From: Proteromonas lacertae
Lineage: Eukaryota
Length of the DNA stretch: 64,000 nt
NCBI GenBank assembly: GCA_002245135.1
Contig: NGBS01000585.1
Location: 1-64,000 of the forward strand
Reading direction: 5' to 3'
Part shown: positions 21,333 to 59,600 of the stretch, piece by piece
Position numbering within the stretch: the first letter of the stretch is position 1
Layout of the letters: every line of letters starts with the position of its first letter
The notes under the pieces: model-generated
The model's input: the letters and a program-made list of their open reading frames with translations, nothing else
Told to the model about the DNA's origin: nothing
The model's database searches: none
Translations under genes and position numbers: made by a program

Positions 21333-23330
21333 ATGGAGGAAGAAGATGAAGATGTATAACCACTTATTTAATTTTTAAAAGGTCGTTTTTGATATTAATG
21401 CTAATAGCAAAAGACTATCGATGTATAGTAAGTGTCAACCAGATGAATTGGAAGGTGCAGATTTTCCAGGTTTGAAACCAAGTATTAATACAGCTGATCA
21501 GATAAGAAATTTATCAGTATATAACATTATTTGTAATTCTTTAGGATTGGGAAGTTTCTTATACTAAAAAAGTTGAAGAAGTGAAGCAAAGATATACACA
21601 ATTAGATAAAGTTTTATCACAGTTGAGGAAAACTGTATTGAATTATAAATTGACAAATATAAACCCATCTGATACAGCAAGTATTCATCTAATTATATAT
21701 AATGAAATAGCAACACATCAAGCCAAATCAAGAACAGTAGGAACAAGAGAAGGAAGGCTAAAAAGAATAACAATGAAATTAAACACTGCATTGAAAGACA
21801 ATGACGAAATAAAACACCAAATAGATGATTTAAGAAGAGATAAAATACGTCGAACTAAAGTAGTAAAAAGATTAGAAAAGAAATATAGAAATAAACAAAA
21901 TGATAATGATGAACTTCAAAGACAATTGGATGAAGCAAATGAAGCAACAAATCAGTATATATAATAATTATTATTTAAATAGAGCTAAATTAGAAGCAGT
22001 ACAAATCCACGAAACAATAAAAGAAGAATTAGCAGAATTTGATGAATTCTGGATGGAAGGAATCAAAGCATTAGACAGACAAAAACAAAAGATGGAACAA
22101 GAAGAACAACGATTAATAGCAACAAGAACAGCGATGGCTGTAGCAGAAGAATGGCATGAAGATCCAAAGATAACAAAATTAAAAAATTACAATACGTTAA
22201 TGTTTTGGGATTGTGCTAAGAAAGGAATTGACTTGAAGGCTCAAGATGAGCAAGCTAGAGAATATGAACGAGCATTTGAAACAATGGCTGACTCATCTGG
22301 AATTAATGATTATCAACAGATTATTGATACAATTGCTGAATTTGAAGATGCTAATTTTTCATCTGTTCAAAGAATATCTGCTTTAAATGATGAATTGACG
22401 AAATTAGAAACAGAATGTTCAGCATTGAAAGAGAAATTGTCAGAAGCTAAATTATCACAAGGAGGAACAAATCATGAAAATAGAATCAAAATATTAAATA
22501 ATTTGAATAATGAAATTCAACAGTCAGAACAAAAAACAGAAGAATATCATCAATCATTAACAAAATCACAATTATTGCTACAACAACTAAAAAGATCAAT
22601 TTCAACAATATTTAAACGTGTAGGTTGTGAAGATGAGATTTTATTAAAGGAATTTTCTATTCAAGGAGTAACTGAAACAAATGTATTAAATATAATGGGA
22701 GTAATTGAACAAAGAGTGATGGAAATAGCTCAAATGTATTATTTACAACAAAAAGGTATTTTACCTGAATTAATTGAACAATGCAATTCACTATCTAGTA
22801 ATTCACCTCCACCAAAATTGAATATTGATGAAAATACAACAGCTTTTAAAGGAAGACAATCTTTAATTAATGCAGTACAACCATTACATCCTCCTCAAGT
22901 ACCATCTGTTACTGAAATACCTGATGAAACTGAAGATGACAATTACAATAATACAAATAATAATACAGGAACAATTGGTAGTTTAAGAAATAATGATAAT
23001 AATGATGCAGTTCCATTGTCGTTAGAAGAAATAAAAAAATCTGCAATTCAAACAGTTAATAAATTATATATAACCAATAATAATAATACATTAGTAAGAG
23101 CTCCACCTCCAGCAATGAGTAGAATTGGTAGTAGAGTAAGTATAGTTTCACAAACACGAAGTCATGTTACTACACCTTCAGGATTAAGACCTCACTTGTT
23201 AAGAAATGCACCAAGTCTTGCCGCTGCTAGAAGAAAGTTGAGTATGAATAGTAATGAGTCTGGAACACCCAATACTGGAGGTGGTAATACTCCAATTAGT
23301 AATAGTCCAAGTCAACAGGAATTAAATTAA
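21333..23330 (+). CDS. Outer dynein arm docking complex coiled-coil subunit (DC2/ODAD1/CCDC63-like)
   Basis: Long coiled coil with FEDANFSSVQRISALNDE and GVTETNVLNIMGVIEQRVMEI motifs. Confidence 0.75.
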
Positions 23331-23955: not shown

Positions 23956-24710
<755 letters not shown>

Positions 24711-24844: not shown

Positions 24845-27196
24845 TTACATCAACAAGAACATAGCAAATACAGCTACAAACAATGCCATCTTGACTGATG
24901 CTGTAAATGCACCTTTAGGAATAGGACAAGTAAAATCACTCTCCTTACACTTATCAAGAGGTGGTTTTGTTGGTATAACACTGGTATAAGAAGTAGCAGA
25001 TAGTTGATAAGGTGAACGACCAACATTAACACATGGACCACAGTTGCAGACATCTGTGCAATGGTCATCGGGAGTGCACCAACCAAATACACCAACATAA
25101 TAATGACCTGGACGAAATAATGAACTATTGGTGAATATATCAATATATCTGATTTCTACTTGAGCTAGTTTGTAAGTATAATCATATATTGTTGGTTTTT
25201 GAAAACTACGTGATACTAGTAATTCAGGCCAAGAATAGTAAGCAGGACACTATTAATAAAATAATCTTTAAATTATACTTCTTCAGCATCTAAATAACTA
25301 TTAAGTTCTACACGAATATTCTCAGTGTTATCTTGTACACAGAATTGATAATATTTATATCCATTTGCTGCAACAGTATCTTGTGGTGGATTTACATTCA
25401 ATATGTTATTACTCTCATCTTCATATTTCAATGTTAATGTGAACTTTCCTCTTTCAGTTTCTCCTTCACATTCTGCTTTTGCAGCAACATAATATACACA
25501 AGCTTCATTTTCATTATATCCACAGTAATTGCTAGTACGATAAACTCTATCATATGCATTGATAAGTCTTGTCATTGTATTTTCATTGTCTTTTCTATTC
25601 AAATACCATCCTTTCATGTTGTAATGTGGATATGGTGAATATAAATTGGAAATCATTAATTTATAAACATTTGTCATTTGATCAACTGTTACTCGGACAT
25701 TCTTACAAGCTTGAGTTGGACTGAATCTGAAATATCGATAATGACCACACTATTCATATAAAATTATTATAAATATAATTTATTATTTATTACCTTCAAA
25801 TCTGATATTTGATATGGACTATTTTCTCTTATATCAGTATAGTCTTTATCTTCAATAAATTCTGGTGGATAGGTAACTTGATTATTACATAAATCTTCAG
25901 CAACTAATGAATTAAAATAAGTATATATGATTATTAAATAAATAATAATATAAAATAGAAATATAAAATCTCTCTTTATTTCCTTCTCTCAATTAATTCT
26001 AAATGTAGGTGAATTCAATGTAATTATTATTATTATTATTATATATTCATTGCAAGCTGTTATTATTTTACTTAATTTACATTATTATTACTATATATTA
26101 TATATTAGTATGTATTAATAACGGCTTTCCTACGCTGGTTCTGACCAGATCAGGTTCAAAGGGTATAATCTCAGTGATATATATACATATATATACATGT
26201 TTATTTAACATTTATGAATAAGAGAGATATAGATAGAGTAAGTAATATTCTTTTAAATGTAAATATATGTATATATCACACCCCTAGCCTTTTTTATTTG
26301 GAAGAGAAGAAATAGAAAATAAAAGAAAATAAAAGATAGAAAGTAATGATGCTATACCCTCAGTAACTGTGACTTTCAATGTAAATTTAGCTGAATCACT
26401 TAATGCACAGCTGGCTGTATCAGTACATCTGTCTTTAATAACCAAATAATAATGACCAATCTTTTGACCTTTCTCATTGGCTGGAATTGTTAATAATTTG
26501 TTGTTCTTTAATCTTGTATCTAATGAATACACATAGTCTTCTTCTGTAGCATCACGTGTATAATGGGATAATAATCCAACTGGAGTTACTTTTGAATTAT
26601 CTGTTGTTAATGAAACTGTAACATTCGAACATTTTTCAACACAGAAATGGTATTTGTGTGTGCTATTTGATCCTAATACTTTTGGATCTAAGTTCTTATT
26701 GGAAATATCAGTGTCTCTGTCAGGAGCTATTTCATAATATATAGTATTACAGAAATATATACAATCAATTAAGGAAACCTTAAGAGTAAATTTTGATTTC
26801 TCATCCTTTGTTGGTACATCACTTCCACAATAACCTAAAATGCCAATATATAAAGGCCCTGGTTCAAATTCTGGATCCCAATGAGAAATAGTGAAATCTT
26901 CATCTCCCCACTCATAAGATGTCCATGTTAAATCATGAAGAGTGGGATTTTTCACATGACGACTTACATATAAATCTGGTTGACCTTCAACGGTATGAAC
27001 CTTTATATTCACATCTTTGCAATATGTTGGAACGTTGACAAAGAAATAACCATAGGTGTTACACTATAAATAAGGTAATTTTCAACAATTATACTTCAAG
27101 CGAAATAACGCTGGTCTCTTGGTCAAAGCCTATTTCAGTAGGTTCCTGTATGGCATTGACAGCAAGAAATAAGCAGATTAACAATAACTTGTTCAT
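24845..27196 (-). CDS. Secreted, probably GPI-anchored surface protein with ~4 Cys-containing PPC-like beta-sandwich repeats; host of TPP riboswitch intron
   Basis: Signal peptide MNKLLLICLFLAVNA. Repeats of Y-x-Y-x-F...PDLYVS...PT..D.TW...G.YY.G..G.C...FTL.V. C-terminal hydrophobic tail KGAFTASVKMALFVAVFAMFLLM*. The exons join in frame across the 25904-26357 intron. Confidence 0.8.
25904..26357 (-). other. Unusually long (454 nt) GT-AG intron
   Basis: Donor G|GTATAG at 26357 and acceptor TTCATTAG|TT at 25904. Splicing gives ...VTVTE-VAEDLCNNQ... in frame. Other introns in the window are mostly ~25-60 nt. Confidence 0.85.
26123..26289 (-). ncRNA. TPP (THI-box) riboswitch aptamer with extended P3
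   Basis: Minus strand reads GGCU-AGGGGUG-[UGAUAUAUACAUAUAU...AUAUAUGUAUAUAUAUCA]-CUGAGAUUAUACCCUUUGAACCUGAUCUGGUCAGAACCAGCGUAGGAAAGCC. Elements: P1 GGCU/AGCC, P2 GGGGUG/UACCCU, J3/2 UGAGA, J2/4 UGAA, P4 CCU/AGG with the GCG bulge, P5 CUGGU/ACCAG. Confidence 0.93.
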
Positions 27197-27347: not shown

Positions 27348-28312
27348 CTAAGTTGATCTATATTGAGGTAATTGCGCTTTTCTTTCTTCCATAGAAGTCA
27401 TATAATCAGAATAAATAAGTATCTCACCTTGTTTCATTGAATCCAATGCTGCTTTTGGATGATTCTCAGTCTGCTAATATTGGATTGTATCTTATTTCAT
27501 TTGGATTTATTGGCATTTTAGCATTGTATACTGGTGGAACTGGAATTCCAGGATATGTGGTGTATTGCTGATTAACTATTGGTGGTTGAATTGTTGATAT
27601 TGATGTTACTGGTGGTTGTGCTGGTGCATATGGGTTATACATCATTGGATATGTTGAAACATTACTCTGTGGCTGTGTTGGTAGAGGTGGTGGTGGTGGA
27701 GGTTGATTGGTTGAAGGTGGTAAAGCAGGATTATTAGTTGGTGGAGGAGGTTGTGGTGGAAGTGGTGCTGTTACTGATGCAGATGATGGAGACACTGGAG
27801 GTGGAGGTGGTTGTGGTGGTAATGGTGCAGAAGATGAAGAAGGAACTGGTGGATTTGATGAAGGTGTTGTTCCACTTGGTAATGGAGGTTGTGATGGTGT
27901 TGGAACAGTATTACCACCACCTGAACTATATGAATATTGAATTTCTCCTGTGTTTACATTTATAAATTTCGTCATATGTTCTATAAAGTGATATAATCAA
28001 AAAATACCTTGACGAATATCTTCAGGAATACCTTTCATTCCTACTACTTTCACTGAAAGAGAATCTCTACCAGGAATTGCATTTGGAACTCTAATTTACT
28101 ATATTTATACAAAAATACGATGTTAATTTTTCATGATGCAGTTGATCAAGATGTGTCAGCAATGATGGTAATGTTAGAAGCTTCTTTTCACAAACATGGC
28201 ATTTAAAATGCTTAGATTGTTGATGCATAGTGAGAATTTTCTCTTCTTCAAATTCTTTATCACAATAATAGCACCATAATTGATCTGCTAACTTTCTTTT
28301 CTTCCTTCCCAT
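27348..28312 (-). CDS. ZNF207: BuGZ/ZNF207-like zinc finger protein
   Basis: MGRKKRK..WCYYCDKEFEEEKILTMHQQSKHFKCHVCEKKL, VPNAIPGR, GMKGIP, a Pro-rich middle and C-terminal SMEERKAQLPQY. Apparent frameshift near 27470. Confidence 0.88.
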
Positions 28313-40393: not shown

Positions 40394-43300
40394 CTATATA
40401 GGTATTGTTTGAATACTTTCTGCTGCTGTTTTTGTTTTATTAAATAAACCACCATTTCTATTCTTGTTTATTAAAAATTGATGATTGAAATGCAAAATAA
40501 CAACTATTCCCCATATCCACAGTCCAAATACTATTACAACAAAGAAATTTGCTTTCACTAAGGTAAAATATAATATAAACATTATCCATTCAGAATAGAT
40601 TTGGATGTAGGTTTTATAAGAGGATAATCTTGCTTTTAATTGTTGTATTCCTTTATTAGTTACATTCTCATTAATATGGCGAAAGGAGGGAAATGGTGAA
40701 GCTATTTTTAAACTTACATGTGATAAAGAATCTCTATTTACTGAAGAAAGTAAAGATCTTAATGAGGTTGTGGGAGATGTAATGGATGAAGATAATGAAT
40801 AATTATTTGCACTATGTTTAAGTGAAGATGAGAGAAGTGGAATATTTCGATTCTTTCGACTATATACTTTTTCATTATTATCGACATTATTGTCACAATT
40901 ATTAAACTCAGATATGGTTGGTAATGGATTAATATCATCAGGATTTAGACCATTAATATTATCATTTTCTTCATTCTTTTCTTCATTCTTTTGATTCTCT
41001 TTTTCTTTTTCCATTTCTTCTTCAGTTACTATTTGTATTGGAATTGTTGATATAGGAATTATAGTTCTTTCTATTTTAGGAACTACAACCAAATTTCTGG
41101 AGGAATCATTCTGTCTATTTGAACTATTTCTTAATACACCATTTCTACTTTGATTTCTTGAAAATGTTGTTAAAGATATTCCATCATCAAAATCACTATC
41201 ACTATCATCATTATTGAAATAAATATCTTCATAGTCATCAACATTAAAATCATATTCTTCTTCATCTTCTTCTAATTTAGAGTATCTATAAGAATATTTC
41301 ATCATTGACAATTTATATAACCAAAAGAATAATATTCCAATTGGAATTTCTACTGCTAAACTATAAAAGTATATTCCCATTTCAGACCAATCAAATTTAC
41401 CAGGAGGGGAATATAGAAATACATTCTCTTCAGTATAGATAGACATCTGCTCAAAGAATAAAGCTAATCGAACAGCTGCAGAGAGTGTTAAAACACAATC
41501 CAAATTACCACAAACTTCAAAACGACAAGCAATTAAACATAATATTTCAAAACATACTATACATCTTTTCAGAAATACTATCAATAATTTTAATATATCA
41601 TTTATTTTATATAATCCAATTAAACAGGTTGGATAGTATATTATTATATCAAACATTGTTAATACACTTGTTATTATAAATATTTCATATACTCGATAAG
41701 ATATTGGATTTCGATTGAAAAATTGACGAATATACAGAAATATATTATAAAATACACTTCCAATCAATAATAACACATAACAAACCATATATTCAGCTGT
41801 TATAAACGAAATTCCTCCAGTATATAAGATTAATATAGAAAATATGTTTGGAGCTGCTGTTATTCCTACTCCTGTTAACATCCATTTTATAGTTTGAAAT
41901 ATTGTTGTTATAACAATCACATATTTAAATACAAAAGTACTTTTTATTGATTTATAATGTAATACTGGATTTATATAATAACAAAATGACCATTCACTAC
42001 TTTTAGAGTTTTTCACCAACAATGTATAATATGTAATTATCAAATACACCATTACAGCAGAGGCATTGGAAGATGGAGTATAATTTAATGAAATCCTAGC
42101 CAAATAGAACAAAAATGATAGTTTTTCTTGAACAACTGTAGTAAAGCCTTCTAACATATCATGATATAGTTTGTTATATTCATTTTCAGGTGGAAGAAGT
42201 ATATCAGCTAATCTATCAACATTCTCGTATCGATCATCATATAAACTATGACTTTCATTATCATAGATAGTAAATAATGCTTCTCTTAGTTTATCAATCC
42301 ATTTGTTACAATATACTATTCCATGATGATCGATTGTTCGATCTACACCAGGAATATAAGATGTCATTACAGAAAAACCATTTTTAGGTGGTAATATTCC
42401 ATCGATTATTTCAGTTGGAGGATCTACTACTAAATCAGTTTGACCACCTGTTATGGCAATTAAAGTGATATTTCCAACTTTCTCATATTCTTTCATGTAA
42501 TTCTTTGGAAAATAATCTGCAAATGTATCTAATCTCAATTTCGCATATTTGTTATAATAAAAGGTATGTCTCTTCATTAACTGAATAGAGTTGTTTGGAT
42601 GAGTTGGGGTATAATATATATTATTCAATCTGGCATATAACTGTATTTGAGCATAATCCCATGTTACTGGAGATTGATAATGAGGTGAAGCTAAAGTAAA
42701 GATCAAAGGAATCACTGTATCATTCTATTACATAGACAATTATTATTTATTATATATATATATACACAATATTCAGATATTGAAGCAACTCTTGCAACTA
42801 CTCCACCCATAGAATGAGCTAAAATCAAAACAGATTTGGCTTTGCCATATACTTCTAATAGATTTATTACTACATCACAAACATATTTTCCTTGTTTTTC
42901 TAATCTTAATCCTGAAAATGCTGTTAATTCTTCACCTAAATCAGTTGTATATACATCATAGAAATAATCATTACTTTCATTCTGATATTTTTGTATCTAT
43001 TAATTATATTATATAATACTTTAATATATATTATACAACTGTTCCTATTGATTGAACATTTTCATACCACCCTTGACTGCCTGGGATAAATAAAACAGGT
43101 TGAATCAATCGAGTGTGATTAACTGATATGTAATTCTTATCAAAATATCTGTAAAGTTTGTATTTAAAACTCCATTTATGTAAATGACTAAAATAAAAAT
43201 CATCTTAGAATAAATATACTTTGTACTATGTCCGTCCTTTACATTGTAAACATTTTGAAGTGTGTAAACAGCGTGTCTATGAAATTATCAAAATATGGTG

Positions 43301-50934: not shown

Positions 50935-53900
50935 ATGATTTCGAGTTTAGGTAGACGTATACATTATTTGTTTAATCACTGAAATAGTTCCACCAGAAAT
51001 TACAAGATTAGAACCTTCTTGTGGACCAAAGGATGGTGATACAGAAATTCATATACATGGTGAACATTTTCCAAAAGTTAAAAAAGCTAAAGTGATATTC
51101 AAATATAATAGAGACACAAGAACAGCACTTGGTTCTGTGTTGAGTACAACAGAAATTGTATGTAAAACACCAGGATTTCCTTTTTGTTGTGATGCTACAG
51201 TAGAAGTTTTAATTGACAAAATACTTACTAGAAGTGGTAAAAGATTCCATTTCTATGATGAATTGTATATAACTAAAGTAGTACCAGAAGTAGTAGCTCA
51301 AGAATGTCCATCTAAATTAAGTGTTTATGTAATGTGTGAAAGTTGGTCTATTTCCAACGATTGGACTAAAATTCCAAATTTAATACCAAATTATTCACCA
51401 GATGACACAAAATCTCCTCATTTCACTCCCTTTATTCGATTCATTTATGGAGATGGGAGACATGTTGAAGTAGAAGGTGTAGAAACAAGAGATTCAGAAC
51501 ATCGAATATTATTTACTTGTGAGCCGCCAATAGAGAGAACTGGTAAGATAATCACAGCAATTACACTGAATGGTATAGATTGGTCAACTAGACATAGAAG
51601 TATATTGTTTATACATTATTATATTAATAAAATAGATTGTAGTGATCTCTTAGAAATCTATGCTGAACCAAAATACGATAGAATTGTACCAGCGTGTAAA
51701 CCAATCCATGGAACAAAACATTTTGAAATAATTGGCTCGTCTATAGTTCAAACTAAAGATATAAAGATCACATTCTACAGATCTGACAATGATCAAAAAT
51801 TAGTTACAGTTACAGGTGATTGGGTAGATGACGGTCATATAGTATTTACATTAGGTGAATCAGTATATGAAGGTGAAAGTTATGCAAAAATATCAGTAAA
51901 TAATATGTTTGCAAATGTGAAATTACCATTTTATTTCTATCGATTTCCTAAGTATAAATCATGTAGTCCTGAATATGGATCATCAAATGGTGGTACTCCA
52001 GTGAGATTAGAATGTTTTCTAGAAGTTGTATATATTTATTTATTTATTTATTTATTTATTTATTATATGAATAGTTTGATAGAGATGGTGAGACTACACA
52101 TAGAAAAGATCTCAAAGATACTTATATAAAAGACACTAATGATATTACAGTAAGATTAATGCACAGTGGTCCATCAGTGAAAAACAATGTAATTGGTGTA
52201 GTTAAAGGTGAATTAGATATCAATGGTGATTTGCTATTTGAAACTCCTCCAAATATTAACTCTTTAGCTTATTATTATAGTAATGTCGAAGATGTGGATA
52301 TTGAAGTGGCTTTTGATGGTAAAACATATAATGGTGATTTGATATTTAGATATTATCAGTATAGATATTATATTATATTATATTTGTATATAGAGCTCCT
52401 ACTATTTTAGTTGTATCTGAAAATCCAATCTCTTGTGTTGGTGGAACTCCATTTACAGTATTATTGGCTGAACCAGTTCCAAATACAAAGACTTATTCAA
52501 TTAGATTCAAAGTTGGTGATGAATATTATATTCAACAAGCCGATACTGTTATTGAAAATGATCCTGATGCTAAACAGAAATTGGAATGTATGTTACCACA
52601 AGTGAAGAATGTTCCAGAAAGAGGATGTGAATGTGTAATTGATGTATCCTTTAATGATTTGGATTATTCAAAGTGTTATGCTGAAACTTATACTGTTCAT
52701 ATGTTTTTAACTCCAATACTGGTGAAGATAATACCAAATTTTGCACTTTCCAGTGGTGGTGATAAAATTGAACTACAATTTGATGGAATGGATACATATT
52801 TATCAGAATATGAACAATATAAAAACAAAAGTAAAAACTTCAGTAATTCACCAATAACTAATAATGACAATATCAAATCATTTAAATTAATTAAAGTGAA
52901 ATGGTCATGGCAGTCAAAGAGATATCAAGATCTATATACAGTTGATACTGTTGTTATTGAAAATGGTAAAGTATATGCATTTGTACCACAATGTTTAGCT
53001 GATACTCCTTTAGTAAGAGTGGATGTGGCATTAGGTGATTCCCCATTTGCACCATCTTCATGTATATTGACTTATTTTGAATTGCCTGAATTAACATCAT
53101 TATCTCCATCATCTGGACCAATTAGTGGTGGTTCTACTTTGAGTATTAAAGGAAATGGATTTGTTGATACTAATTATATAACTGTTAGATTTTTTAATTT
53201 AAATTTTAATTGTACAGTTGATGGTACTTATGTGAATGAGAATGAAATATTATGTGTTACTCCTGTTGCAAATATTGTTGGTTTTACTACGATTGAAGTA
53301 TCATTAAATGGTCAACAATTTAATCTTCAAAAACCATTGTTATTCTTATTTGTTCAATTACCTTTTTCTATTACATTACAACCGAGATATACTATGTATA
53401 ATACGGCTGCTCGTATTTCGTTATTAGCAAAAGATATCTTCTATCCAGGTGAATTATATGTAAAAATGACAAATGATTCAAATAAGCTTGAATATATTGT
53501 ACAAACTAAATACGATCCTGTTTTAGAATGGACTAAATATTTCAATATGTTTGAAAAGGCAGTAAATGGTGTATTTTCAGATGCTGTAGTTGGTGTTGGA
53601 TTAAAAAGATTGACAGATGTAATAGCTAAAAGAATGACAACTGCATTAAATACAAATACAGCCTATTTTATCACTCCAGACAACATACCGCCAGGTAAAA
53701 TTACATTTCATTTAAGTAGTGATGGTCAACAATTCAAATTAGCTGATGGTTATTTTGATGTGATTGATAATCCAGCAGTAAAGAAAATTACACCTACTGC
53801 CTTACATTGGAGTGGTGGTGAAAATATTAGAATAGTAGGAGGTAATCTACAAGATCTAGGTTGTATTAAAGTAAGGTTTACTTATCCAGAAACAAATGAA

Positions 53901-56657
53901 ACAATATTAGTAGAAGGAAGATCAATAAAAGGAGGTATTGAGTGTATAAGTCCTGAATTCTCAAAGTGTGGTGATTGGTATTATTCTGTTACTTTAGATG
54001 GAATAAAATTCATTACATCTTTACCAATACCAATATATGGCAAGATAGTAATTGAAGAAATATATCCAAATCTTGGTACAATTCGTGGTGACACAATGGT
54101 GACTGTTACTGGAAGTGGATTTGCTGATTCAGGTGTAGCAAAGGCAAGATTAACAGTAATAGATAATGAAAATAATGTATATGAACCATTAGTAGTATCA
54201 GGTAAATATATTGATAATAAAATAGTATTTACTACTCCTCGATTTCCTTCATCAGGTAAAGCAAAAGTGGAAGTAAGTATGAATAATAGAGATTGGAATT
54301 GTGTCTATCAAAATAGAAACGGTGATACAGATATTATATACTTTTTAGTATATCCTCAACCTGTTATAACAAATATTCAAATTAGTGGTAATTATAGAGA
54401 TATAGTTCATATTGAAGGAAACAATTTCTATTCTTACGGACCTGTTATTGTAAGATTTAAACCATTAGATGGTGAAAAGAAAGGTGAAAAATTAGATGTA
54501 AATGGACAAATATGGAGTTCTTCTGTAATTGAATGTAAATCACCATCATTATATACAAAATGTTGTATAATAGAAATAAGTCTAGATGATAAACATTATA
54601 CGAGACAGAAAATAGGAATTGAATTTAAAGTAATACCAATTATAACAGCGATTAGCCCAAGTTGGGGACCTCTTTGTGGAGGAACAACTTTAACACTAAC
54701 AGGAGAGAATTTTGAGAATACTGGTAAAATCGTTGTGTCATTCTCCTGTGAATGGGGTGGAGATAGAAGAGTATTAGGATTATTCACTGAAGATGGTACA
54801 ATACAGTGTCAAGCACCATCATTTTTAGATTGTCAAAGAATGAGAAGGCATAAGAATTTGAATGTGAAAGTGGATGTATGTTTGTTAGGTGGTAGAACTA
54901 TTAGAACATTGCCACTACTAATTCCATTGAAGATATTTAGATACTACGATAAAGATCCATTGATATGGGCAGTTAAACCAAAAGATGGACCAGTTTATGG
55001 AAATTTTGCAATGTTTCTTGAAACTCAACAAGTTCATAACACAAAAGATTTGATAGTGAGATTAAGACATGAAGCAACAGGTGAAACATTTTATATTAAA
55101 CCAAAGTATAAGAAAGGAGGACAATTATCATTAATGGCTCCAGCTTGGGAATATTCCTCAGATGGTACTGTTGCTGTGAATGTTACTTATAATGGACAAG
55201 ATTATTCAAATGATCATAAAAGAGCTAAATTAGGTATTTGGTCTACATGGCAGAATAGACCAGGAGCTGCAAAGAATCAATCACAACAACAAACCAAAAG
55301 TTTTGATAATCCAATGGATATAACAGGAGGTACAGCTGAGAAGTATGTTAGTTTGAAAGTTATTAAAGAGAATACTGAAACTGATTATTCTCTTAGACCA
55401 ACTAGTAGAGTATGGAAGATTAAAGATTCTCCATTTGCACTACCTTCACCAGAGACTGTTCATAATGATTTATTCTTAAATGATAAAAAACTTCAAGAAA
55501 CAGCTAAGAAAACAGAAGCATTAGCTCCAAAAGATGATAAAAATCCAATATGGTTGAATAAAGGTGCATATTTCACTGAATATGATACACCATTTACTGT
55601 TGAAGATCCGCCAGTAAATGAACAAGTATATCATCCACCATTTACAGAATTTACAGAAATGGATGATGAATTATTAAAGCAATTAGATGCTATGGAATCA
55701 GAAGGTGATTTATACTCAATCCCACAAACTGCCAAAAGTAAATCAAGAGCATCTTTAGTATTATCACCATATCCAATGACAAGAGATCATGAAAGTTTAA
55801 GAGAATCATTTCATCGATCATTATTAGATGCACCAAATATGGCACTTCTTAATGAGCAATTACAGGAGCAACAGAAACCATCTTCGCCTTCTAAGAGCAA
55901 TAGACCAAAAAGTGCATTATTAATAAGACCGAGTACAACAATGACTTCAACAGCAAATAATACATTAAGATCAACTTTAAGAAGTGAAAGTGCTGCATCA
56001 TTGTTATTACCTCCTACAATTCCAAGAGCACAAACAGTTCCTCCTAATCAATCATTATTATCATCAACTACATCATACAATAGATGTATATCACCAAAAA
56101 CACCATCATTCGATAATAACAAAGGAAGATCAAGATCAGTAATGGATAATAATATGTTTAATAATAACAGAACATCTCCAACATCTTCTCTAAGACCACA
56201 ATCAGAATTAGCAATGAATAATTCTTTATGTAATACCAAATTTGATTCAACCACAAAATCAACATTTTATGAAACAGGCAATAGTGTTTATAAACCAACT
56301 CCATTCAATAATACTAATTCTCCAGTAAGGAAAAGAAGAGAAATTACTCCAGCAAGGACAATCAAAAAACCAGAATCTAGATGTCCTTATCACTCTGAAT
56401 TATCAATATATTTAAGAGATTTATTTTTAAATCCATCTGATGGGCATGATACTCAAATATGTTTTATGAGAGTATTACAAACATTTGATAAGAATTGGGA
56501 TAATACCTTAGATTATCGATCATTTTGTATGGGTATTAGAAAATTATTACCTGATATTTCTGAAGAAAGATTAAGTGAATGTTGGAGAGAAGTAGTTCCA
56601 AAAGAAAAAACTCATATCTATTATTCTGAATATATAAATAGTTTAGGTCGTATATAA
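50935..56657 (+). CDS. Large IPT/TIG-repeat protein with C-terminal EF-hand-like motif
   Basis: Repeated (L/I)xPxxGPxxGGTx(L/V)xIxGxxF...VSLNG units; C-terminal DKNWDNTLDYRSF. Confidence 0.8.
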
Positions 56658-56698: not shown

Positions 56699-59600
56699 TT
56701 ATTTTATATTCCAAAATTCTTTAGACAATTCTCTCTTCACTTCTTCTGAAATTCCATTTAGCTCAATTATTCCAATTGATGAAAATGTTTTTAAAAATGA
56801 TTGTAATTGTGATATTTCAATATTCTCTTTTACAGTTATTAAGAATGTTTCTAAACTGTCAAATATTTCTTTATTTTCTATTAGCAATTTTAATCTTTCT
56901 TCATTTAATTCATACTCCTAACATTGTTATCTTATTTAATCTTTTATAGTTTTTTAATCTATCTATAAGCATTTTTAATCCTTCATCACTCATTCCAATA
57001 TCTATTAATTTAAAAACTAATATGTTCATAAGATACTTGATATATTTATTGATGAATAATCGTTATACTTATACACAATTTTACCTATATTTTCACATAT
57101 TATTTTTATCCCTTCATCTCCAATTGGATTATGATGAATTGGAATGTATTCTGAATCTTTTGGTAAGTTTTCCATTAATTCCTTTAATCCTTTACTACTA
57201 ATGTTATTGTAAGCTAAATAAAGACTTTGATAATCAATTTGCTTGATTAATGAAATATGAGAATCATGAATTTTTAAATCTATTTCCATTAGAATTATAT
57301 AGTCTTTATACGTGCAAAATCATTTTCTCCATAATCTTTTCTCTTCTTTTTAATACAATAATTCAAATAATATTCTACTTCTTCATTATTCCATAATAGA
57401 TTTTTAATGTCTATAAATGGATATTCTTCATCTGCTAATGATTTTGAACAAACAGATTTTAATCCATCAATTCTGATGTTATTTCCTTTTAAATTTATAT
57501 TTTTACATTTACCTAAAGAATCTATTATATCTGATAATAAAATCACACTTTCATCATCTATTGATATATTACTCAAATTAATTTCACCATCCTCTATCAT
57601 CAATAGATTCGGGTAGTATAATAATAGGTTAAATCCATCATTACCAATTGGATTATCTATTGAAGAAATGATAAATAGTAAAACAAATATACTATGAATT
57701 AATAATTTTACAAAAGAGTATCTGTCATTATTCACCAAACATTTAATTAAATAATCTATTCCATCTGAATCTATTTTATTATCACTAACATCAAGCACAA
57801 TATTGTCATCATATTTTTCTAGAGATAAATATTGTAATCCATGTGAAGATAATCCCAACTCTATTTTATATTAACAAACAAATAATACTAGAAAAATAAC
57901 AAAAGAAGAAACTACTGAAACAATCACCTGTATTTTTCATAAAATAATGGTGATATGGTGATAATAATTTCATTCCTTCATCTCCAATTTCATTTCCATT
58001 TAAATGAAGTTTATAAAGTTTTGGAATTGATGATAGATTATTAATCAATATTTCTATACTTTTATAAGTCAGTTTATTATCTAAGAGGTATTAACATATT
58101 AAGTTATACTTCTCAAATTTAACTCTGTGATTTCTCTTAATTCATTTAATCTTAATGAAATGAATGATTTGAAGAAATCATCATCAATCCCCATATCACT
58201 CAAATCTAATTGACGCATAGTATTAATTAATTGCGGAATGTCTTTATCTATTAACAACTCTTTACATGGATCGCAATATGTATCTGGAAATTTGGAGAAT
58301 AAGGCTTTTAATGCAAATGAATGAATATTATCATTCCATTGAATATCTATTTTCTTAAGATTTGGATATTTATATAATTTTTCTGATAATAATATCATAG
58401 ATTCATCATTTAAATTCATTTCATAAAGATTTAATTCATTTTTACTATTAATTAATAAATGTAAATATGGAAGCAATAATCTAAAGCCTTTTGAACGACT
58501 GGATTAACTACAACAAAATTAGATCAAAAATAAAATAATATATACATGTAAGATTCATATATTTCATCATGAATGGAATTGATTTTATAAATGATTTAAT
58601 GAAATCAGAAGTAACACCACATGATGATATATTCAATTCTTGTAGATTAGATAATTGAGATAAATATGACCCAAAGAGTGATTGATACTGAAATGGAATT
58701 CTAATATTATCTAAACAAACAAATTAATAATATACTAAAATTCAGTTTTGTTGGATTTATTAATTTCATTATCCAAAAGAAATAATACATTCCTTTTTTG
58801 CAGGCACAAATATGATCTTTATCAATTCTAATTTCTTCATAATGACTAGAAACATTAAATATTATTCTATCTAATTTACATTTATTTCCTTCTTCACATT
58901 GGTGATTAACTTGAAATTTCAATTTCACGTTCTATTGATCTATCAAATTTGTATATTTTCATCATCAATAGCATAGCTAATATTCTTTCATTGGGTTTAT
59001 TATTGTATGATTCTATCAAATCATCTCGAACCTCTTCCCATTTATCACTTTCAAGATTGTATTTTAATGAATTAGTAATTGGTAGAGGAACAATCAAATA
59101 ATCATTATTGAATAACGTTTCTTTTCTTTCATTACACATCATTACATTATCTTCTTCATCTCTCAATATTTCACTCATCTTTATCATCTCTTTTTTCAAC
59201 TCTTTTAAACTCATTCTATTCTCATTGTTCACTTTCAACATTCTTTCTATTATTTCTTTCATTTTATCATCACATTCTATATCAAAACTATATTTACATC
59301 TCACAATATTCTCTTTCGTTTTTCTCATATTATTATCTTCATTGAATGGTAATTTATTGTTATCATCTCATATAAAATACATCCAATTGACCAAATCACA
59401 CTTTTCTCATTACATTCTAATCCATTTAATTCTTCAGGGCTTTTGAAGCATATATCATATAATCTCATATCTTCCTCTTTTCTCAATGTGTTTAACCATA
59501 CATCACAGATCTTTATTTTATCTTCTTCATATATCACATTACTACTCTTCACATTATCAGCTTCTACATCATATTCATTCAACATCATCATAAGATTGGA

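What the first reader, a model, noticed from the sequence alone, without database searches (positions are those of the whole stretch)
25968..26228. Possible long-range expression platform: P3 insert complementary to a purine tract near the 3' splice site
Seen: in the pre-mRNA, the interior of the ~105-nt P3 carries AUCUCUCUUAUUC (26228-26216). A purine tract GAGAGAAGGAAAUAAAGAGAGAU (25990-25968) lies about 65-85 nt upstream of the acceptor, and the two are near-complementary. A pyrimidine tract just after the donor (26343-26300) could compete for the same purine tract. Established: the Neurospora NCU01977 riboswitch controls splicing by long-distance pairing. Inference: alternative pairings may bring splice sites together or hide them, depending on TPP.
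Basis: partly seen in the sequence, partly recalled or inferred. Interest (0 to 1): 0.7.

Follow-up and report, generated by a model that had tools for sequence, protein, structure and literature searches.

The report
Vitamin B1 switch on surface protein
A predicted vitamin-B1-sensing RNA switch sits in a long intron of an unstudied cell-surface protein gene, and in the matching intron of distant relatives; it likely shuts the gene off by diverting splicing to a site followed by a stop, which would link a protein family found from protists to sea urchins to vitamin B1.

Summary
Significance is marginal (p 0.02 to 0.33 by null). The helix would be a pseudoknot costing the same with or without TPP, and one relative has no P3 insert. 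The purine tract is predicted to pair with the pyrimidine tract behind the donor instead. The Neurospora alpha/alpha' pairing is absent.

The likelier switch is the green-algal/plant type: an AG acceptor inside aptamer stem P2 (26285-26284). Splicing to it gives a stop two codons on; the distal acceptor gives an intact 585-aa protein.

The main finding is the host gene. It encodes an uncharacterised, signal-peptide-bearing, probably membrane-anchored PPC-fold protein with relatives in protists and animals. Four of 6 metagenome loci of the family (two organisms, about 30% identical to the window protein) carry a TPP aptamer in the matching phase-1 intron. One looks spliced into that P2 acceptor; another retains this intron while its other introns are gone. 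The mechanism is a known kind. I did not find the host family among reported riboswitch hosts, though it could be the algal UNK1. No RNA or ligand data exist here for the window gene.

The parts
27095..27196 (-). Exon 1 of host gene; start codon and predicted signal peptide
   Evidence: Six-exon model, 585 aa, no internal stop; hydrophobic N-terminus
26763..27063 (-). Exon 2; conserved domain A1 (PPC-like beta-sandwich)
   Evidence: Family HMM A score 154; Atlas PPC lead, 20% of cluster members
26358..26726 (-). Exon 3; degenerate domain B1
   Evidence: Family HMM B score 18
25904..26357 (-). Intron 3, 454 nt, phase 1, carrying the riboswitch; the gene's other four introns are 29-44 nt
   Evidence: two introns of the neighbouring gene are 27 and 28 nt (read by eye)
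26352..26361 (-). 5' splice site region; complementary to J3/2 and the P2 3' strand
   Evidence: Duplex -12.6 kcal/mol; reached by 10 of 5555 GU sites in the window; other four donors -2.9 to -7.2
26298..26343 (-). U/C tract after the donor; lies just before the proximal acceptor; predicted partner of the P1/P2 5' strand (nascent RNA) and of the purine tract (full intron)
   Evidence: relatives P0001 and P0152 read through the same donor into an F/L/S-rich (U-rich) stretch
26123..26289 (-). TPP aptamer, P1 to P5, with CUGAGA and GCG motifs
   Evidence: RF00059, 50.0 bits, E 1.7e-8, below gathering 54.3; all stem pairs canonical
26284..26286 (-). UAG at the P1/P2 boundary: predicted alternative 3' splice site (74-nt intron, stop two codons later); also the in-frame stop of the unspliced RNA
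   Evidence: the same AG before GGGUG in L004-L006, with a branch-point-like word 12-18 nt upstream; L002 joins exon to GGGUG
26174..26279 (-). Long P3 hairpin (106 nt)
26216..26228 (-).
   Evidence: unpaired 0.79 in both states
26159..26168 (-). J3/2 and P2 3' strand; predicted to capture the donor in ligand-free nascent RNA
   Evidence: the effect depends on the 5' boundary chosen
25968..25990 (-). Purine tract, 64-86 nt before the distal acceptor
25794..25903 (-). Exon 4, after the distal (productive) acceptor
   Evidence: In frame with exon 3
25279..25749 (-). Exon 5; degenerate A2 and start of B2
24845..25249 (-). Exon 6; conserved domain B2 and hydrophobic C-terminus (GPI-type or membrane anchor, inferred)
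   Evidence: HMM B score 168; hydropathy up to 2.15; family alignment

Best explanation
The tracts lie in a 454-nt intron that holds a predicted TPP riboswitch, which likely turns the gene off by choosing between two 3' splice sites rather than through its P3 insert. With TPP bound, P2 would be fixed and the donor freed early. The spliceosome would then join exon 3 to the AG inside P2 (26285-26284), giving a stop two codons later and a protein without the conserved B2 domain or anchor. Without TPP, the nascent RNA is predicted to hide the donor on the P2 3' strand and the P2 acceptor strand on the U/C tract. The purine tract, made about 130 nt after the aptamer, is predicted to capture the U/C tract, loop out the aptamer and let the donor splice to the distal acceptor, giving the 585-aa protein. 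Shown: the sequences, frames, aptamer match, and the same layout in relatives. Inferred: ligand binding, direction of the switch, the folding order, and that the protein serves thiamine or precursor capture at the cell surface.
For: AG directly before GGGUG in the window and in L004-L006. PMC9544697 states that green-algal and plant aptamers use the AG in the P2 'AGGG' as alternative acceptor (passage). [quoted passage not shown] L002 has an intron-free first unit joined in phase 1 straight to GGGUG, lacks a P1 5' strand, and runs into a stop; the distal join is in frame. L004 lacks six coding introns and one 74-nt GT-AG piece present in L005 but keeps the 941-nt riboswitch intron. 4 of 6 family loci carry a TPP aptamer there (E 1.4e-7 to 4.5e-4). 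They are two organisms, 30-31% identical to the window protein, in a 100/99-supported clade that excludes it. Prefix folding: donor G26357 pairs with C26163 at 0.86-0.99 until the purine tract appears, then 0.0-0.44. Replacing the purine tract by AU-rich intron sequence keeps the donor locked in 12 of 12 trials (0.94-1.0, against 0.08 in the natural sequence).
Against: No RNA or ligand data for the window's own gene. All five aptamer matches are below Rfam's gathering score. The donor lock is fragile: the free-versus-bound difference in donor opening cost is 0.9-4.8 kcal/mol with 5' boundaries 26420 or 26380 and vanishes (0.1) with 26500. Much of the complementarity follows from this organism's usual GUAUA donor (6 of 1374 GUAW sites reach it). 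L004's donor shows no such pairing. In the full-length fold the donor is about equally accessible in both states. The P2 acceptor is base-paired in the bound fold. 8 of 12 shuffles of the purine tract also release the donor, so composition, not exact sequence, drives that result. L002 could instead be unspliced with a donor inside P3; that join also fits relative L003 at the junction (compared by eye). Diatom aptamers of good sequence did not respond to thiamine (PMC9544697).
Confidence: 0.6

Rival explanations
1. One reading: the P3-loop tract and the 5' U/C tract compete for the purine tract, and TPP shifts the balance, hiding or joining splice sites.
For: The 9-bp helix is better than 98% of region shuffles and than 423 of 426 genomic windows. 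The P3 tract is predicted unpaired (0.79). L004 also has a P3 pyrimidine tract that can pair with a downstream purine tract (-13.5).
Against: p=0.33 within tract composition and p=0.069 as overall duplex. Opening cost differs by only 0.6 kcal/mol between states. The two pyrimidine tracts prefer different halves of the purine tract, so they need not compete. L002 has no insert. L004's tract is mostly paired inside P3. The P3 interior was dispensable in NCU01977 and NMT1 (PMC3597705).
Confidence: 0.12
2. Regulation by plain intron retention or 3'-end processing, as in plant THIC. The unspliced RNA stops at the UAG in P1/P2 and gives a 281-aa form with a hydrophobic tail, so TPP would switch between a short and a long surface protein.
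For: Read-through gives a hydrophobic C-terminus (hydropathy up to 1.95). An AAUAAA word lies at 26298-26293. The donor is predicted blocked without ligand. L004 retains the intron.
Against: The short form lacks the conserved B motifs (HMM B 18 against 168). U-rich RNA encodes F/L/S/I in any case. Read-through in L004 stops after five codons with no hydrophobic tail (read). AAUAAA is common at 28% GC.
Confidence: 0.15
3. The aptamer acts, but both tracts are low-complexity filler with no role; splice choice depends on local signals or proteins.
For: Neither tract pair beats dinucleotide shuffles of itself. The 5'-intron helix is matched by 17% of shuffles and 25% of genomic windows. No tract conservation could be tested at DNA level.
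Against: The purine tract holds 8 G in 23 nt against 8 G in the 129 nt before it, and the U/C tract has 10 C and no G. The 454-nt intron is ten times the usual length here, so a bridging helix would be useful (inference).
Confidence: 0.25
4. The aptamer is a non-switching relic and the protein has no link to thiamine.
For: Scores are below gathering. Diatom aptamers are unresponsive. No thiamine-related Pfam family is found in 18 family members.
Against: Core motifs and stems are kept in organisms 30% identical in protein, with double changes in P5. The P2 acceptor is kept, and apparently used in L002.
Confidence: 0.08

Closest known systems
Chlamydomonas THIC intron TPP riboswitch and plant THIC 3'-UTR riboswitch (P2-acceptor type)
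   Same: AG acceptor in the P2 'AGGG' (PMC9544697 passage); aptamer in a coding-region intron whose alternative splicing brings in a stop (PMC3597705 passage; PMC10226581 passage); predicted masking of the donor by aptamer bases without ligand, as in plants.
   Different: The host is not THIC or THI4. The predicted donor-masking strand is J3/2 plus P2 3' (-12.6), not P4/P5 (-6.1). A distal purine tract may act as release and bridge. The organism is not known to be in the green lineage (taxon not determined). The two primary papers (Croft 2007, Wachter 2007) were not held; I saw them only as cited.
Neurospora NCU01977 riboswitch (long-distance alpha/alpha' type)
   Same: TPP aptamer in a long coding-region intron; long-range pairing may shorten the effective intron; a long P3.
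   Different: No alpha partner for the P1 3' shoulder; no alternative donors between the donor and the aptamer; P1 ends 219 nt before the acceptor, against under 60 nt; host is not a multi-pass transporter.
Riboswitch-linked algal genes ATS1/FOLR and UNK1 (PMC4260697, PMC9544697)
   Same: Non-transporter genes of unknown function under TPP aptamers. FOLR proteins carry signal peptides and were proposed to take up thiamine by receptor-mediated endocytosis.
   Different: No PF03024 match in the window exons or in 18 family members, so not ATS1/FOLR. UNK1 could not be compared because the supplement was unreadable. None of the named homologs seen was a prasinophyte, but names were looked up for only 20 of the 150 listed representatives, plus those named.
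PPC / collagenase collagen-binding domain fold (PF04151); SIDT1/2 ectodomain
   Same: The first domain of the model of family member P0010 aligns to ColG CBD 1nqd at Z 12.0, rmsd 2.0, 95 residues; tandem sandwiches resemble SIDT ectodomains, Z 9.5-9.8, rmsd 13-14.
   Different: Identity 12-20%; Foldseek TM-scores at most 0.30; a shared fold shows no function. The family's conserved Trp/Cys motifs match no Pfam model.

Membership tests
TPP riboswitch aptamer (RF00059) | CUGAGA pyrimidine-sensing motif after P3 | tested here: met
   26174-26169
TPP riboswitch aptamer (RF00059) | P4/P5 arm with GCG pyrophosphate motif | tested here: met
   P4 and P5 pairs canonical, GCG at 26135-26133; the L5 loop differs from the Rfam consensus
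TPP riboswitch aptamer (RF00059) | P1 and P2 close the junction | tested here: met
   4-bp P1, 5-bp P2
TPP riboswitch aptamer (RF00059) | Rfam gathering score 54.3 | tested here: inconclusive
   50.0 bits, E 1.7e-8, with a 94-nt P3 insertion
TPP riboswitch aptamer (RF00059) | Binds TPP and changes expression | not testable with these tools
   Needs probing and culture
P2-acceptor splicing riboswitch (green alga/plant type) | AG acceptor within P2 AGGG | tested here: met
   26285-26284; also L004-L006
P2-acceptor splicing riboswitch (green alga/plant type) | The P2 acceptor is used in RNA | tested here: inconclusive
   L002 fits such a junction but has a second reading; no RNA for the window gene
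P2-acceptor splicing riboswitch (green alga/plant type) | Alternative product carries a premature stop | tested here: met
   Stops follow the junction in window, L002, L004-L006
P2-acceptor splicing riboswitch (green alga/plant type) | P4/P5 strand masks the 5' splice site without TPP (plant THIC, NMT1) | tested here: not met
   Best duplex -6.1; the J3/2-P2 strand pairs instead at -12.6
NCU01977 long-distance type | alpha near the donor pairs with the P1 3' shoulder, 11 bp or more | tested here: not met
   Best 6 bp, -5.9; -7.6 with the exon end included
NCU01977 long-distance type | Alternative 5' splice sites upstream of the aptamer | tested here: not met
   No GU between 26357 and 26281
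NCU01977 long-distance type | Under 60 nt from alpha' to the 3' splice site | tested here: not met
   219 nt
ATS1/FOLR riboswitch genes | Folate-receptor domain PF03024 | tested here: not met
   No match in 4 exons or 18 family members
UNK1 riboswitch gene of Micromonas | Homology to UNK1 | not testable with these tools
   Accession lies in an unreadable supplement

The most novel reading that the evidence does not exclude
The host founds an unrecognised, eukaryote-wide family of anchored cell-surface receptors that capture vitamin B1 or its precursors, kept in echinoderms, hemichordates and Trichoplax. Its ancient intronic TPP switch uses a co-transcriptional timer: a distal purine tract unlocks the donor only once the productive acceptor is about to be made.
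Probability: 0.3. Interest if true: 0.85.

Novelty: new variant of a known kind. Interest (0 to 1): 0.68.

Why it matters
Riboswitches usually sense a ligand tied to the host gene's function (stated in PMC9544697). A TPP aptamer in the matching intron of genes only 30% identical therefore gives a first functional lead for a conserved family with no Pfam model. The animal members are about 50% identical to the window protein over the conserved domains, so a thiamine-capture role becomes directly testable in sea urchin or sea cucumber proteins. It would also extend the P2-acceptor splicing mechanism beyond green algae and plants, where the papers I read place it.

Tried and rejected
No whole genome is held. 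No RNA holder was listed, so splicing of the window gene could not be read. Rfam at gathering threshold found nothing in the window; at E 0.01 only this aptamer and a weak snoRNA match. Homolog search with exons 2-3 among longer proteins: 0 of 1435 candidates. Related-locus scans that gave no relative: A-domain patterns in metagenomes, 0 of 59 stretches; viral contigs, 0 of 21; prokaryote genomes, 0 of 12. No DNA of the 86-88% identical relatives (P0001, P0151-P0155) was obtained, so covariation of the tracts is untested. Exact look-up of 10 window ORFs found none; the taxon stays undetermined. A Blastocystis guess from intron size was not supported or tested; a search for Blastocystis plus riboswitch listed 1 unrelated paper. 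A scan of 185 proteins for aptamer-coded peptides found only P0046, which is L002's product. Whole-intron folding is not better than shuffles (z -0.95). Shuffling the P3 tract did not change the fold, but this is uninformative because pseudoknots are not modelled. Earlier scan notes: nothing for this genome or protein; two notes on other genomes did not bear on the reading. Searches for a report of this host family listed none, judged from titles and abstract starts; subscription papers and the supplement of PMC4260697 were not visible.

Full report
Setting. The window is 28% GC eukaryotic DNA with short GT-AG introns; the organism was not determined. The finding lies in intron 3 of a six-exon minus-strand gene (27196-24845) whose joined frame gives 585 aa with no internal stop; the introns are 31, 36, 454, 44 and 29 nt. 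The long intron holds a TPP aptamer (RF00059, 50.0 bits, E 1.7e-8, under the gathering score, with a 94-nt P3 insertion). All P1-P5 pairs are canonical.

The observation. Both tracts are at the stated places. The perfect helix is 9 bp, -11.4 kcal/mol. It beats 98% of 500 region shuffles and 423 of 426 genomic windows of the same geometry. It does not beat shuffles within the tracts (p 0.07 and 0.33) or as overall duplex (p 0.069), and 35% of shuffles give a helix as long. It would be a pseudoknot across P3; opening its strands costs 5.1 kcal/mol free and 5.7 with the aptamer fixed, so it is not state-specific. In nested folding the purine tract pairs with the U/C tract behind the donor at about 0.6 in both states. 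That pair is also no better than its own shuffles.

The Neurospora analogy. I read parts 2 and 3 of 5 of PMC3597705 and further passages. Its switch pairs the P1 3' shoulder with an element near the donor, uses alternative donors, and tolerates deletion of the P3 interior. Here the P1 3' strand has no partner better than -5.9 or -7.6, there is no GU between donor and aptamer, and P1 ends 219 nt before the acceptor. The locus is not of that type.

A better-fitting switch. The aptamer's P2 begins with AG followed by GGGUG (26285-26284). PMC9544697 (passages) says this AG is the alternative acceptor in green algae and plants. Splicing exon 3 to it removes 74 nt and gives Gly-Val-stop; the distal acceptor is in frame. 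The same UAG stops the unspliced frame at 281 aa. Either short product loses domain B2, the only intact B domain (HMM score 168 against 18 for B1), and the natural anchor.

Evidence from relatives. A metagenome scan with B-domain patterns gave 6 loci from 113 matched stretches. Four carry a TPP aptamer, all below gathering. L004-L006 are 99% identical, so they and L002 are two organisms. L001 and L003 are open frames of 711 and 654 codons without introns and say nothing about the intron. In the aptamer-bearing loci the intron is phase 1 and follows the last strand of the first B domain, as in the window; the linker is poorly conserved, so the position matches to within a few codons only. L004-L006 have AG before GGGUG, 104-113 nt after the donor, with a branch-point-like word just upstream, and a full P1/P2 around a P3 of about 245 nt. 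L002 joins the exon in phase 1 straight to GGGUG and lacks a P1 5' strand, as expected of an RNA spliced at that acceptor; a donor inside P3 is a rival reading. L004 lacks seven GT-AG pieces present in L005 but keeps the riboswitch intron. These proteins are 30-31% identical to the window's and fall in a 100/99 clade that excludes it; the window protein's own place is unresolved (30 rows chosen from 185 proteins and the loci).

How the window's tracts may work (inference from equilibrium folding of prefixes; kinetics not modelled). The donor region pairs with J3/2 and the P2 3' strand at -12.6 kcal/mol, reached by 10 of 5555 GU sites and none of the gene's other four donors. From completion of P2 until the purine tract is made, this pair has probability 0.86-0.99 and the P2 acceptor strand pairs with the U/C tract at 0.64-0.74. 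Once the purine tract appears it takes the U/C tract and the donor pair drops to 0.0-0.44. Replacing the purine tract keeps the lock in 12 of 12 trials; 8 of 12 shuffles of it release the lock. Against this, the free-versus-bound difference disappears when the fold starts at 26500, full-length donor access is similar in both states, and L004 shows no such donor pairing. This part is a hypothesis.

The host family. A search of 1.84 billion representatives gave 213 proteins at E 0.001 or better; 49 of the 179 proteins then held have a strong B domain (its count of 50 includes the window protein). Named members come from echinoderms, a hemichordate, Trichoplax, Mallomonas, Chara and a record labelled Clim, which I recall as Corallochytrium. 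They have an N-terminal hydrophobic stretch, one or two A-B units with conserved Trp/Cys motifs and a hydrophobic C-terminus. Pfam gives one weak hit (UPF0669, E 0.008) in 18 members. The AlphaFold model of the sea-cucumber member P0010 (pLDDT 82.6) is two beta-sandwiches; the first aligns to a collagenase PPC domain at Z 12.0. A thiamine role rests on the riboswitch link alone.

Novelty. Hosts reported in the papers I saw are biosynthesis genes, transporters, NMT1-like genes, FOLR/ATS1 and UNK1: PMC4260697 (sections 12 and 15 and passages), PMC9544697 (passages), PMC5882874 (passages), PMC10226581 (passage), PMC9870897 (passage). This family is not FOLR and not a multi-pass transporter. UNK1 cannot be excluded, because the supplement was unreadable. 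Nine searches listed no report of this family as a riboswitch host.

Verdict. The locus is a likely P2-acceptor TPP riboswitch on a conserved, uncharacterised surface-protein family: a new variant of a known kind, interest 0.68.

Noticed in passing
L005:2148-2221 and L006:1213-1286: A 74-nt GT-AG piece inside the riboswitch intron is absent from L004, suggesting the stretch after the aptamer is processed as exon in the stop-containing isoform.
   Followed up: partly
Proteins P0083, P0120, P0183-P0185, P0005, P0176: These predicted proteins end a few residues after the last strand of the B domain, as if read into an intron at the same linker; their DNA might hold more aptamers.
   Followed up: no
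Proteins P0003-P0031 (up to about 2700 aa): Many long proteins with up to 16 copies of the A-type domain; a large unannotated repeat family related to the host.
   Followed up: no
window 57126-57192 (+): Weak match to box C/D snoRNA SNORD45 (34.1 bits, gathering 42, E 0.007).
   Followed up: no
window 27430-28312 (-) and 24000-24700 (+): Neighbours read by eye as a C2H2 zinc-finger, proline-rich gene with 27- and 28-nt introns and a Rab-type GTPase gene (labels recalled); neither suggests thiamine metabolism.
   Followed up: no
window 21876-23330 (+), 50951-56657 (+), 40394-42724 (-): Pfam matches to an ODAD1 coiled coil (possible flagellar gene), IPT/TIG repeats and a PGAP1-like GPI deacylase, the last consistent with GPI anchoring in this organism.
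   Followed up: no
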